In this document: piece by piece, positions 25,855 through 31,026 of the stretch
Numbering within the stretch: the first letter of the stretch is position 1
How the letters are laid out: every line of letters begins with the position of its first letter
Assembly: GCA_002633005.1 (NCBI GenBank)
Contig: NMRA01000005.1
Span: 1,098,101-1,162,100 of the forward strand
Source: Phoronis australis
Taxonomy: Eukaryota; Animalia; Phoronida
Length of the DNA: 64,000 bases
Direction of reading: 5' to 3'
The notes under the pieces: generated by a model
The model's database searches: none
Seen by the model: the letters and a program-made list of their open reading frames with translations, nothing else
Told to the model about the DNA's origin: nothing
Translations under genes and position numbers: made by a program

Positions 25855-28653
25855 GCAACAAAGAAAAGAGCAACAAGACGACTTCAGAGCAAAACCACTG
25901 AGCAATTTTAATGGATTTTTTTCAATAACTCACTTTCCAAAGCATGGTAGAGTAGGTCGAAGTCCTGTTTCGTCTTGGGGTTCATTCGCCGCTCAAATTC
26001 TCGTCGGATTCGGTCCTCCTTTTCCTTCTTCTTCCTTATCTCCTCCTGACGTTCCCACTCCAGTCTCATGGCCTTGTCCTTGCGCACGTGCTCAACCACT
26101 CTCTTGGCCAACCAACGGCGGTAGTACTTTTGAATAATAATGACCTGTATACAGATATACAACAACAGCTTATTAACATGACATAGGCAAGAAACTCGAG
26201 CTTCAAAAGTAGGGCCACCTATATTAATGTGGGTGGCCCTGCTCTTCAATTGCCTTAGAGAATACAAGGACAAGTGGCTTTCGGCATTTTATCTACTGGG
26301 ATTAAAAATCATGATTTGTTTTGATGTATCACATACAAAAATTTGGTTTAATTTGAATTTTAACTGCTTTATTCGCCAAACGCCAGCCCAGGAACTCTAA
26401 AAGCAGGAGGCCCAAGTTTTGAAGAATATCAGTTTTGCACTAATTTAGTGGCAAGCCTATTTAGAAAATTTTCAACACATGAAAGGTTACATTAAATTTA
26501 GTTATTTCCCACCTGGAAATGGTCAAATAGTATATAAGGATAACCTGCTAATAACTTGTTCGCAATGTAAACCGTTTCTAAATAAACCAAACTGGCAGTG
26601 ACTTGAAACAAACCTTTTTGAGGATCATTGCGTGGTACTCCTCTGCCGTTGTATACTGTCCAGGCACCATCAACTTGTCCTCCATGTTAGATACGTAGAG
26701 CCCGACCTTTGTCATCTGCGTCGACGAATCGCTAAACGTCTGTTGAACTTGGTGCCTTTGTTGTACGGTTTGTGTGTCACGGCAGAAGCGCGGTACATTG
26801 GTGGGTGCGCGAACTTTCTGCATGGTCTGCGCCGAGGCATGGTGGTACTCAGCGTTGGTCTTCTTGTGCCGGTAACCGCCGAGGAATGGCTTCTTGCGCG
26901 TGGCGCGCTCGATTTCCACAACCACATCCCGGTACTCACTGTGACCTAAAAAGTTGGTAAGTAGGTCAATAAACTGCTTTATACACTACGTAAATGTACA
27001 CTGGCAGATAGATGAGTAATAATGCCTGAATTTGAGTGAATTTAGAAGCAACAAGTACCTCACAAAACTGCATGACCATGCAAGCCTTGATGAGATATTG
27101 CCAGGCATTACAAATCAACACACGATCAAATTAGCTGTTCTCAGCATAGAGCTACAGAAAACAACTAAAATTAATTAAGAAACGACCCCGTGTAAATAAA
27201 AAGCCACATACCATCCATAACCCTAACAGTGATCACGTCTGGCATCTGGTATTCCTGCCGTGGCCTGTATGCCTTCATAGGTGTATTCACTGGGTCGGCT
27301 GACTGCATCTCTAATTGCACCGTACCGTTAGGTCCTACCCCCAGCTCTCCGAGGGTCATCATGTCTGCTGTGGCTTTACCGTCAAACATCAGCAAGATGG
27401 CGCTGGCAGGCATCTTCAGCTCATGGGAAAAGTGCTCCTTGAGTTCCAGCAATGTCTGGCTAAGTTGGCAAGCTAGTGTCGCCACCTGGCCACTAGGCAT
27501 CAAAACAAACTTGACTGCAAACAATCAAGAGCATAATTTGAGACAAAACAAACAAAGAAAACTATATACATATACATATGCATATGGATATACATATACA
27601 TTATATGTATATGTGTCCTAACTATTACAAAACATTTGATAGTATATAATAAATTATGAGTTCCATTACACAGCGCTCAATTACCCAACCGAATATTCAT
27701 GTCTAATAGGATCAAGATATATTAAATGTTACTAAAAATCATTTGCTTCACAACTTAAAAGGCAACACAACACAATAATGTGAAGTGGTTGGGCAATATT
27801 TTCAAATACTGCACTATTAAAATAGTATATGTGTTGTGTATTAAGCATCAAAATTATCAAAATACATCTGAATTTCACACTAACCTGTAGCAGTAGCATG
27901 TGTATTCACAAATGACCTAGGAGACACGGGCGGCTGCGGCGACACCGCATGGGGGTCCACCTCCTCGGTCGCTACGTTGGGTTCAGTAGCCGTACCCACG
28001 TTCTCTTTTGTCTCTTCCTCACCCGTTACCTGAACCTCCTCCACTGGACCTACATCCTGTTCTACTGCATAACCACCACCAGCCACCTCCTCTGTTTTCA
28101 GTTCTTCACCACCTGGAGGTGCCTCGGTCTCCGCAATAGTTTCCTGTGCAACACCTTCCTCGACATTGTCCAGATTTTCAGCCCCTGCCTCTTGAGTTTC
28201 CGTTTCCTGATTTTCACTTTCTTGGATGGCTGTGTCTGCCATTTGGTCAGATTCCTTGTTTTTGACATCTGCAGTTTCTGTACTTTCCACCATGGGCTGC
28301 TCTCCAGACTCCACCAGCTCGACATCTGCAGGCTTTTCCCCAGACTCTACATTTTCAACTTCCACATTTTCTGCATCCTGCTCTTCCACATTGTCCGTGT
28401 CCTTAGCAACGTCTTGATTACTCTCCGCCAAAGTTTCTACAGGTTGATCTGCAACCTTTTCTGGTTGCCCACTTTCTGCAGTGTCTACAGCCTCTTCTTG
28501 ACTTTGTCCAGCCTCTTCCTGCAAATTTTCACCAACACCTTCCTGGTTTTCATCAGCACCTTGAGTTCCTTCGTCATTTACTGGTGCTTGACTATCCTCC
28601 ACCGGGTTTGCTTCCGTTTCAGCAGGCTCAGCTTGAGCTGCGTTATCGGCCAT
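21759..28653 (-). CDS. IQUB: IQ motif and ubiquitin-like domain-containing protein (radial-spoke stalk), complete 10-exon CDS, 2757 nt / ~918 aa
   Basis: Acidic N-terminus, ubiquitin-like domain, [24 protein letters not shown] motif, [46 protein letters not shown], CxxC..Cxx[15 protein letters not shown]; all ten exons join GT-AG in consistent phase. Confidence 0.95.
22025..22330. repeat. ~78-bp minisatellite, ~4 copies, in IQUB last intron
   Basis: Unit GGTGTTTATGCAAAC..GATAGGGTAATTATTATTCA..AACATTRCCRTGRCAACACT..ATA repeated. Confidence 0.9.
22331..22516 (-). CDS. IQUB: IQUB coding exon 9
   Basis: [29 protein letters not shown]; phase 0/0. Confidence 0.92.
22943..23191 (-). CDS. IQUB: IQUB coding exon 8
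   Basis: [30 protein letters not shown]; phase 0/0. Confidence 0.92.
23787..23963 (-). CDS. IQUB: IQUB coding exon 7
   Basis: [38 protein letters not shown] acceptor; phase 0/0. Confidence 0.92.
24360..24530 (-). CDS. IQUB: IQUB coding exon 6
   Basis: [27 protein letters not shown]; phase 0/0. Confidence 0.92.
25074..25249 (-). CDS. IQUB: IQUB coding exon 5
   Basis: (K)[44 protein letters not shown]; phase 1/0. Confidence 0.92.
25821..25854. repeat. (AAT)n microsatellite
   Basis: ~11 perfect AAT units. Confidence 0.95.
25934..26144 (-). CDS. IQUB: IQUB coding exon 4 (IQ motif)
   Basis: [22 protein letters not shown]; phase 0/1. Confidence 0.93.
26614..26945 (-). CDS. IQUB: IQUB coding exon 3
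   Basis: (G)[32 protein letters not shown]; phase 1/0. Confidence 0.93.
27212..27514 (-). CDS. IQUB: IQUB coding exon 2 (ubiquitin-like domain)
   Basis: (V)[36 protein letters not shown]; phase 1/1. Confidence 0.93.
27885..28653 (-). CDS. IQUB: IQUB coding exon 1 (acidic low-complexity N-terminus)
   Basis: Open 256-codon E/Q/A-rich frame from ATG 28653; acceptor 14 nt upstream (exon starts 28667); phase-1 donor at 27885/27884. Confidence 0.88.
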
Positions 28654-29401
28654 TGCTGTTTGTAAATCTGTAAAATAAATTACAGATATTTTTTTGTACA
28701 GATTGAGGTCACCATGCGTGTATTCTCAGGATTATGGACTTAACACGCAGTTTTTGGTAAGCCATTTTAGAAGGTTTAGTAACTCGGCACACAACATGGT
28801 CAACAGTTTGAAAAGCAGAAACTGGTCGACTGACATGTTATATGGAAAGCTTAAAAAATTGGGCACCAGCTGACTTCATTATTAATGTACCTTAAAGTGC
28901 CATCAATGAGAAACTTGACCACACAGCCCAGGGCCTAATCTCTAAACTCATACTCAAAACTGCACTTTGGCTCTGTATAGTTGTCCATTTGTATCCTTAC
29001 CTTTAGGGATTTGTGGGTGATGCAGAGCTTCAACCAATTATTTTGCATCATTAGAGTACAAATTTGTGACTATAATCCTGCCAATGCAATTGATCAAATT
29101 TCGAATCAAGTTTCGAATACGGAGATTAGATGATTAGACCACGAGTCCAAGATGCCTCTCTTTGACTTGCTCAGGATCCCGTAACTAAACTGAGTTTAAC
29201 TACGCAATTACTGCAGTTCCAATAAATAACTACACGATCTCACATCCACTGAAAGTAACTGTTTCTCACTTTACCCTGCCTACACTCATAACTGGATGTA
29301 GGGAGCACGAAAGCCTAAATGAAACTTGATTGAAAGACATGGTCATGGCGTTGGGATACATGTTCACCGGACCACGCTTTCAATTCTTCTCAGTGCCTTA
29401 C

Positions 29402-29550
29402 CAGCAACAAAATTCGACCACCAATGTATCGCAAAGGAATTCTAATAACTTTATACTCTTGGAATACTTACTTCAATGGATTAAAACAGCAACACAGCAC
29501 AGAAAAAGTGTTCTCGAGGAATCTTCACAAAATGGAAATCATATGCAGCT
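29402..29550 (-). other. IQUB: Putative non-coding first exon of IQUB
   Basis: Strong donor CTG|GTAAGG at 29402/29401; the ATG exon begins with an acceptor, so an upstream exon is needed; 5' end estimated. Confidence 0.5.
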
Positions 29551-29850: not shown

Positions 29851-29986
29851 GTGAATTTTTAAACGCAGTTTTTAGCTAAAATTATGAACGATCTGCGTTG
29901 ACCGATGGTTTAATTACCACAGATGCAGACAACTTAATACTTCCCTGTATTGAAAGCAACTGAACTGTGCCAAAGACCAACAAAAG
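29850..29986 (+). other. DNAH12: Putative non-coding first exon of DNAH12
   Basis: Donor AAG|GTGAGA at 29986/29987; the ATG at 30845 directly follows an acceptor (TTTTGCCAG); 5' end estimated. Confidence 0.5.
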
Positions 29987-30844
29987 GTGAGAAATTGTTG
30001 TCGAATTGGTGTGTCTAGTAGGTGAACTCGCAAGAGCCGAGCCGAACAGGCGACGGTGACTTGGTTGCGTTGAAACCGTTTAGTAATACATCATATTGCA
30101 GTGGTGTAACTGATCAAGTCGTGACTATTTATATAACTTCCTCGTTAGGTTTGATGCAAAGGAAAATTCCAAAATGTATTTTAGTTTTCACAAATTGGCC
30201 GAAAACATGCAGCCTCGGTTTTGCATTGGCAAAGGCAAAGCCTGGTTTCATGTTATTCTTTCACCATCCCATCTGAGACTACATCCAGACGAAGAGGGGA
30301 TGGTTTACTGAGGACACACGTCAGTTTCTCAATCATAGTCTGTCTGTTAAATTTTATTTAATGGAGGTGCAGCTGCCTCCACTGGGAAAACTGTGAATGC
30401 TGGTTTTGTAACTGACTGGTGTTGTTTTGGCCACTTGTATCGCATGCCATTTTTGCATATCCTCTGTAGTCCTCTGACCATCAGCACTTTGGAAGTTTTA
30501 GTGCTTCACTATTAATGAGAGGTAGTTTTAGCTGTGTAAAAATTGTGACGTAAACATACTTTGGGTTTGGAGTTGAAAGGATTTTAAAATGTCGCCTGCA
30601 GCAGCATTCGCTCAATGCTCGGAAAGTAGTTGTGATGAAATTTTGATGTCTTAACGTATGTTTAACCAAATTCAAATTTGCCTGGTTTCCAGTTAATATC
30701 TGTCGCACTAGTACAAATAATTGTGTATGCGTGACAGAATTAAACGCTGCTTGTTCCTAGAAGCGCAGCATATGTATTTAATTGACACTCGTTTCATAAA
30801 TATGCATTTATCATTCATGCTCATCTTCATTTTGATTTTGCCAG

Positions 30845-31026
30845 ATGTCTGCAGTAAATGGGCACAGTTACAAGAATGGTGGATCCGCGCGTCGGTCGCC
30901 GGAAGGAATGCCTCGTCTTCCACCAATCTCCAAACCGAAACTGGAGATAAAAGACCCCTATGCCGACAGCAAACTCATGAAGTTCAGACTGGCCAACAGT
31001 AAACAAGAACTGCTGACAAAGATAAT
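30845..31026 (+). CDS. DNAH12: DNAH12 coding exon 1
   Basis: [27 protein letters not shown]; donor AT|GTATGT, phase 2. Confidence 0.75.

What the first reader, a model, noticed from the sequence alone, without database searches (positions are those of the whole stretch)
28653..30845. IQUB and DNAH12 head-to-head: a radial-spoke subunit and a neighbouring inner-arm dynein may share one promoter
Seen: the two ATGs diverge 2.2 kb apart; each follows a splice acceptor, and strong donors at 29402 (-) and 29986 (+) imply non-coding first exons with starts only ~300 bp apart. Known (from memory): IQUB (Chlamydomonas FAP253) is a stalk component of radial spoke 1, and DNAH12 is the single-headed inner-arm dynein assigned to position a, next to RS1. 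Inference: two physically adjacent parts of the 96-nm axonemal repeat are co-regulated from one bidirectional promoter. I know of no description of this gene pair.
Basis: partly seen in the sequence, partly recalled or inferred. Interest (0 to 1): 0.8.

Follow-up and report, generated by a model that had tools for sequence, protein, structure and literature searches.

The report
Ancient back-to-back cilia spoke-motor gene pair
In this invertebrate the genes for two touching parts of the cilium's motor, the radial-spoke anchor IQUB and the dynein DNAH12, start about 250 bases apart in opposite directions and rise and fall together in three RNA samples, and database records suggest they stayed neighbours in five animal phyla but were split in vertebrates, so they likely share one old promoter region.

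Summary
Mostly confirmed, and extended. The minus-strand gene is IQUB (918-aa open frame). The plus-strand gene is DNAH12 (best PDB match in 5 of 5 exons). Stranded RNA reads show non-coding first exons at 29472-~29571 (-) and ~29812-29986 (+), with an uncovered AT-rich gap of about 240-270 bp. One correction: IQUB uses the donor at 29471, not 29402. Both genes are similarly expressed in two libraries and nearly silent in a third. Both lie on records of equal length (read as the same scaffold) in 33 of 38 other invertebrate species. They carry strictly consecutive accessions or locus tags in 10 of 24 comparable species (annelid, molluscs, sea urchins, acorn worm, amphioxus), but sit on different records in 9 of 9 vertebrates. 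Papers show IDA-a is DNAH12, docks at the RS1 base, and is recruited with RS1 as one unit. Not shown: that one cis-element drives both genes (no full X-box, only a CRE palindrome and half-sites), and IQUB's orientation in other genomes. Verdict: likely an ancient bilaterian head-to-head pair, a new member of a known kind, not found described in my searches.

The parts
21783..28653 (-). IQUB (FAP253/CMUB116 orthologue) coding region, 10 coding exons, 918 aa; acidic N-terminus, ubiquitin-like domain; left end approximate
   Evidence: PDB IQUB E 1e-33; Pfam ubiquitin on exon 27216-27515; 8 of 10 introns listed as RNA joints, other 2 placed by homology and GT/AG; open frame
28668..29471 (-). IQUB intron 1 (donor actually used is at 29471)
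   Evidence: joint in 21 (X1) and 12 (X2) reads
29472..29571 (-). IQUB non-coding exon 1; 5' read ends fall in 29541-29571; one 5-codon upstream ORF
29552..29585 (.). Motif cluster at the IQUB start: CRE-type palindrome TGACGTCA (29567-29574) flanked by two RFX-type half-sites; names recalled, function untested
   Evidence: palindrome occurs at 4 places in 64 kb; GTTG..ATGACGTCA found once in the window and once in 100 kb of fetched loci, upstream of IQUB in L002 (pattern defined after seeing both)
29572..29811 (.). Untranscribed spacer between the two 5' ends, 21% GC; predicted shared nucleosome-poor promoter region
   Evidence: no read depth; 29601-29800 ranks 8th lowest in GC of 1276 windows, the 7 lower ones all in one AT-rich stretch at 2451-2950
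29812..29986 (+). DNAH12 non-coding exon 1 (6 molecules end at 29835); RFX-type half-site at 29838-29846; three upstream ORFs of 2-5 codons
29987..30844 (+). DNAH12 intron 1
   Evidence: joint in 34, 25 and 2 reads (X1, X2, X3)
30845..63713 (+). DNAH12 coding exons, residues 1 to about 2358 of about 4000; gene runs out of the window
   Evidence: 34 colinear tblastn segments against Lineus DNAH12, mean 68% identity; first 382 codons open across the joined 5' exons; best PDB hit DNAH12 in 5 of 5 exons

Best explanation
IQUB and DNAH12 are transcribed away from each other from starts about 250 bp apart, and they are likely an ancient bilaterian head-to-head pair whose short shared promoter region would switch on both genes together in cells that build motile cilia. 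Inferred mechanism: an AT-rich open spacer carries a core promoter at each edge, and factors bound there (predicted CREB/ATF type at the CRE, RFX type at the half-sites) open it for both directions. The products are the RS1-specific docking protein and the heavy chain of inner arm a, which papers show to sit together and load together, so joint timing and similar dose would be useful. A break in the spacer would damage both genes, which likely kept the pair. Vertebrates likely lost the link by keeping one gene from each copy after genome duplication.
For: Shown: first exons, gap and opposite strands. Mean junction reads IQUB/DNAH12 were 30/24 in X1, 20.5/20.6 in X2 and 0.25/0.6 in X3 (8 and 7 listed joints). 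Equal record length in 33 of 38 invertebrate species, including small scaffolds (Lottia 559 kb, Mytilus galloprovincialis 368 kb, Saccoglossus 1.1 Mb). Of 24 species with comparable accessions, 10 are strictly consecutive and 11 more lie within 2-47 numbers. In split annotations of Mytilus coruscus and Lytechinus pictus the DNAH12 N-terminal piece is numbered next to IQUB. Papers: IDAa is DNAH12 and associates with the RS1 base (PMC10266980); RS1 and IDAa load as a discrete unit, RS1 docked by FAP253 (10.64898/2026.01.30.702858, Chlamydomonas); IQUB loss lowers DNAH12 and DNAH7 protein (PMC11755891). Conserved pairs are enriched for 5'-5' orientation (PMC3514665). Mammalian IQUB lies by ASB15 (PMC5614667), goat DNAH12 by ASB14 (PMC12686773).
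Against: No full X-box: best match 5 of 14 mismatches, 3 such sites seen against 1.9 expected. Motifs sit at each start, as two separate promoters would give. Co-variation rests on 3 libraries of one study, tissue unknown, with no housekeeping control for X3. Adjacency elsewhere is read from accession order and record length, not DNA; 3 of 24 species are far apart in number (Lineus, Haliotis cracherodii, Diadema setosum) and 5 of 38 are on different records (Physella, Nucella, Plakobranchus, Clavelina, a fragmented Saccostrea cucullata). 0 of 24 metagenome IQUB loci showed a DNAH12 exon, including L009 with 6.8 kb and L017 with 2.6 kb upstream of the first coding exon. IQUB's direction was seen in no other genome. 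All 9 vertebrates compared lack the link, so it is dispensable.
Confidence: 0.6

Rival explanations
1. Two independent core promoters sit back to back. The genes co-vary because both belong to the motile-cilia programme, and the old linkage persists because a 250-bp gap rarely receives a harmless breakpoint. The spoke-dynein match would then be a coincidence among many cilia genes.
For: Each start has its own half-site; no central X-box; RFX motifs are enriched at most motile-cilia gene starts anyway (10.1101/085571, passages); link apparently lost in several gastropods, a tunicate and vertebrates.
Against: Near 1:1 levels in two libraries. Of all possible partners the neighbour is the dynein that loads with RS1 (10.64898/2026.01.30.702858). 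PMC3514665 counts only 595 ancient non-paralogous pairs, so retention over five phyla is unusual.
Confidence: 0.3
2. The pair is kept as part of a larger conserved block, for example enhancers inside DNAH12 introns serving a third gene, and the divergent layout here is incidental.
For: DNAH12 is long and intron-rich, the profile of bystander genes in PMC3514665 (passages); flanking genes in other genomes were not examined.
Against: Neither gene is a developmental regulator; the starts are only about 250 bp apart and both are active in the same samples.
Confidence: 0.07
3. The arrangement is an assembly or naming artefact (misjoin in the spacer, or the dynein is DNAH7/DNAH3).
For: No read bridges the spacer (RNA only). 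Some database entries in the same clusters are labelled DNAH7. No tree with paralogues could be built.
Against: Reads match both first exons at 99% or better (124 of 128); DNAH12 wins 5 of 5 exon comparisons, by 99 to 53, 74 to none, 84 to 30, 199 to 178 and 100 to 44 bits; independent genomes show the same neighbours.
Confidence: 0.03

Closest known systems
Conserved ancestral microsyntenic pairs (CAMPs) in 5'-5' orientation, e.g. HSPD1-HSPE1 and HADHA-HADHB (Irimia et al. 2012, PMC3514665; passages and part 1 of 3 of Results read, supplements unavailable)
   Same: Unrelated genes, divergent, under 1 kb apart, linked in several phyla, products work together.
   Different: The named examples are housekeeping complexes and are still linked in human; this pair encodes motile-cilium parts and is split in the vertebrates compared. 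It may be an unnamed row in that paper's Table S2, which I could not see.
COL4A1/COL4A2-type head-to-head collagen IV pairs (PMC12141075, search listing and start of abstract only; arrangement otherwise recalled)
   Same: Ancient animal head-to-head pair for chains of one assembly.
   Different: Those genes are paralogues; IQUB and DNAH12 are unrelated.
RFX/FOXJ1 motile-cilia promoters (Quigley and Kintner, 10.1101/085571, passages read)
   Same: Cilia genes with RFX-type sequence close to the start.
   Different: No full X-box here; the clearest motif is a CRE palindrome with half-sites; binding untested.
Vertebrate IQUB (beside NDUFA5, ASB15) and DNAH12 (beside ASB14, APPL1, FLNB)
   Same: Same proteins and roles.
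   Different: On different chromosomes. That ASB14/ASB15 and other neighbours are paralogues marking one duplicated segment is recalled, not tested.

Membership tests
Head-to-head (bidirectional) gene pair | Opposite strands, 5' ends under 1 kb apart | tested here: met
   about 240-270 bp between 5' read ends; read ends, not capped starts
Head-to-head (bidirectional) gene pair | Co-expression | tested here: inconclusive
   both on in X1, X2 and almost off in X3; n = 3, no unlinked control
Head-to-head (bidirectional) gene pair | Shared cis-elements act on both genes | not testable with these tools
   needs a reporter or an edit of the spacer
CAMP (ancient microsyntenic pair) | Non-paralogous genes within four genes of each other in four or more major lineages | tested here: met
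   consecutive accessions or locus tags in Annelida, Mollusca, Echinodermata, Hemichordata and Cephalochordata; indirect, from numbering
CAMP (ancient microsyntenic pair) | 5'-5' orientation conserved across lineages | tested here: inconclusive
   DNAH12 5' piece numbered next to IQUB in 2 split annotations; IQUB direction not seen; 0 of 24 metagenome loci held both genes
DNAH12 (inner arm a heavy chain) | Closer to DNAH12 than to DNAH7, DNAH3, DNAH1, DNAH6 | tested here: met
   5 of 5 exons
DNAH12 (inner arm a heavy chain) | Groups with DNAH12 in a tree holding the paralogues | not tested
   no paralogue sequences in hand; the tree holds DNAH12 orthologues only
DNAH12 (inner arm a heavy chain) | Occupies position a in this animal's axoneme | not testable with these tools
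   shown for mammals (PMC10266980, PMC10774353, PMC11779644); inferred here
IQUB / FAP253 | Ubiquitin-like domain plus conserved IQUB core | tested here: met
   Pfam PF00240 35.5 bits, cut-off 25.4; core 73-77% identical to most mollusc, annelid and nemertean IQUBs; PDB IQUB and FAP253 hits
RFX X-box promoter | Full palindromic X-box near the starts | tested here: not met
   no strict or relaxed match in the window; best 5 of 14 mismatches, chance level; half-sites only, 3 seen against 0.17 expected with a pattern chosen after looking

The most novel reading that the evidence does not exclude
The last common ancestor of protostomes and deuterostomes hard-wired the RS1/inner-arm-a assembly module into its genome: one bidirectional promoter with a conserved CRE/RFX-half element makes the spoke anchor and its dynein at matched dose. 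Vertebrate genome duplication dissolved the pair by reciprocal loss, freeing DNAH12 and IQUB to be tuned separately between sperm and epithelial cilia.
Probability: 0.3. Interest if true: 0.75.

Novelty: new member of a known kind. Interest (0 to 1): 0.52.

Why it matters
It links gene order to axoneme architecture: the two genes encode the RS1-specific docking protein and the dynein that loads with RS1. If the layout holds in amphioxus, sea urchin or scallop, a 250-bp fragment becomes a compact, testable motile-cilia promoter that works in two directions. It also supports assigning invertebrate DNAH12 to position a, and offers a clean case of an ancient pair split in vertebrates. The class of arrangement is well known, and the link is dispensable in several lineages, which limits the surprise.

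Tried and rejected
No whole genome was held, so no in-genome control of other cilia gene pairs. The run search listed no indexed RNA holder; three raw-read runs and one contig run came by species label. A metagenome scan with the DNAH12 first coding exon found 76 pattern matches, none confirmed. A scan with the IQUB ubiquitin-like exon gave 24 loci, none with DNAH12 by tblastn or HMM; the best HMM hit (E 0.007, L001) lay inside IQUB's own acidic coding region in another frame and was rejected. X-box-like matches upstream of IQUB in L009 and L017 were set aside because the same pattern occurs inside IQUB introns of L016, L020 and L021. Upstream regions of 11 loci showed no alignable block with the window. 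The representative search gave no IQUB identifiable as cnidarian, so age beyond Bilateria is untested. A Logan IQUB fragment and DNAH12 fragments share a longest contig of 16720 bases; no accession was shown, so it was not counted. Ciona and Batillaria records were not comparable and were left out, as were species with only one of the two genes listed. Donor 29402 rejected. No complex prediction was run; direct IQUB-DNAH12 binding is not claimed.
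Full report
Observation. Stranded RNA reads of the same species (coded runs X1-X3, about 18-19% of each read) show a non-coding first exon for each gene. DNAH12 exon 1 runs from about 29812-29835 to 29986 and splices to the ATG at 30845 (34, 25 and 2 reads). IQUB exon 1 runs from at most 29571 to 29472 and splices to 28667 (21, 12 and 0 reads). Between the exons depth is zero on both strands, so the 5' read ends are about 240-270 bp apart. 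These are read ends, not capped starts. The spacer is 21% GC.

Identity. The minus gene gives an open frame of 918 aa (8 of its 10 introns were listed as RNA joints, which hid 11 further joints). It matches IQUB and FAP253 in the PDB and has a ubiquitin-like domain. The plus gene covers residues 1-2358 of a 4002-aa nemertean DNAH12 in 34 colinear segments. In 5 of 5 exons tested DNAH12 beat every other dynein in the PDB. No tree with paralogues was possible. Trees of orthologues place the animal among non-mollusc lophotrochozoans, phylum unresolved.

Expression. Mean reads over the listed joints (8 for IQUB, 7 for DNAH12) were 30 and 24 in X1, 20.5 and 20.6 in X2, 0.25 and 0.6 in X3. The genes are on together at similar level and off together. 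This is three libraries of one study, of unknown tissue, with no control gene, and any two motile-cilia genes might behave so.

Other genomes. I had no DNA of named eukaryote genomes, so I used record lengths and accession order from the protein searches (each list only the best 120 hits; clusters). Among invertebrate species with a record length shown for both proteins, 33 of 38 had equal lengths. The five exceptions were Physella, Nucella, Plakobranchus, Clavelina and a fragmented Saccostrea cucullata. For 24 of the 33 both accessions were comparable. Ten were strictly consecutive: Owenia, Lottia, Sinanodonta (locus tags), Mytilus coruscus, Lytechinus variegatus and L. pictus, Ptychodera, and three Branchiostoma species. 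Eleven lay within 2-47 numbers. Three were far apart (Lineus, Haliotis cracherodii, Diadema setosum), though congeners of the last two were close; numbering is not strictly positional. In two split annotations the N-terminal DNAH12 piece is the one numbered next to IQUB, so DNAH12's 5' end faces IQUB in a mussel and a sea urchin. IQUB's own direction was not seen elsewhere. In 9 of 9 vertebrates with both lengths shown (lungfish and eight teleosts) the records differ. Against conservation: none of 24 metagenome IQUB loci showed a DNAH12 exon, most being too short, but L009 has 6.8 kb and L017 2.6 kb upstream of the first coding exon. Cnidarians could not be tested.

Promoter anatomy. There is no full X-box (consensus recalled). 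A CRE-type palindrome lies at 29567-29574, at the IQUB start; it occurs at 4 places in 64 kb. RFX-type half-sites lie at 29552, 29577 and 29838 (3 seen, 0.17 expected, pattern chosen after looking). A 15-base composite of half-site and CRE occurs once in the window and once in 100 kb of fetched loci, about 470 bp upstream of the IQUB ATG in L002, a clam-like contig by protein match, in the opposite orientation relative to IQUB. This is one case with a pattern defined from it, so a lead only.

Mechanism. Shown: divergent transcription from close starts, joint on/off pattern. From papers (passages read in each): IDAa is DNAH12 and associates directly with the RS1 base (PMC10266980; also PMC10774353; PMC11779644); RS1 and IDAa are recruited as a discrete unit and RS1 docks through FAP253 (preprint 10.64898/2026.01.30.702858); IQUB loss lowers DNAH12 and DNAH7 in human and mouse sperm (PMC11755891). 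PMC11949491 reports DNAH12 loss affecting sperm but not cilia in mice. Inferred: a shared open spacer with a core promoter at each edge couples both genes, and selection or low tolerance of breakpoints kept the pair since the bilaterian ancestor. Also inferred: vertebrates split it by reciprocal loss after genome duplication. Mammalian IQUB lies by NDUFA5 and ASB15 (PMC5614667; PMC7999090) and goat DNAH12 lies in a 1-Mb region with ASB14 and FLNB (PMC12686773; PMC7519921, names the genes together without positions). That ASB14 and ASB15 are duplicates of one gene is recalled, not tested. The main rival is two independent back-to-back promoters with generic cilia co-expression.

Comparison and novelty. 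This fits the conserved ancestral microsyntenic pairs of PMC3514665: 595 non-paralogous pairs, enriched for 5'-5' orientation, with HSPD1-HSPE1 as example. It meets the distance and lineage criteria; orientation elsewhere and shared cis-control are open. I found no description of this pair: 18 papers hold both gene names (16 listed, three read in passages, the rest as listings, none about linkage by title); DNAH12 with synteny gave 5 listings, none on this by title; promoter-and-cilia searches gave 0 and 1 listed papers (that one read in passages); searches gave no such title. Supplements of PMC13508932 (2 files), PMC7530604 (1 file) and PMC5429095 (12 of 16 files; my control term was also absent, so uninformative) lack the names. 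The supplement most likely to hold the pair, Table S2 of PMC3514665, could not be read. Earlier scan findings hold no note of this pair but three other head-to-head cilia pairs, which suggests such layouts are not rare.

Verdict. New member of a known kind; interest 0.52.

Noticed in passing
window 31951-33560: Element in DNAH12 intron 2 with 17-nt terminal inverted repeats beginning after TTTAAA, read on both strands as a multi-copy repeat; a short frame at 32249 looks like a THAP-domain start by eye but Pfam found nothing. Kolobok-like by recalled features.
   Followed up: partly
window 29812-29986 (+) and 29472-29571 (-): Three upstream ORFs of 2-5 codons in the DNAH12 leader and one of 5 codons in the IQUB leader; could damp translation.
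   Followed up: no
window 37268-37294 (+): 27-nt DNAH12 exon encoding nine residues; several database orthologues lack the matching residues, so it is either skipped or missed by annotation.
   Followed up: partly
window 13879-14364 (-): First coding exon of a sodium:neurotransmitter symporter (SLC6) gene downstream of IQUB, same strand.
   Followed up: no
window 34630-35129: 50-nt inverted repeat arms 400 nt apart around a repeat read on both strands; likely a small non-autonomous transposon.
   Followed up: no
window 56465-56997: Near-identical stretch repeated at about 299-bp spacing in a DNAH12 intron (two almost identical ORFs).
   Followed up: no
database records: Lytechinus variegatus and Diadema antillarum each list both genes twice on one record (pair duplicated or haplotype duplicate); some amphioxus and mussel DNAH12 entries are labelled DNAH7.
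   Followed up: no
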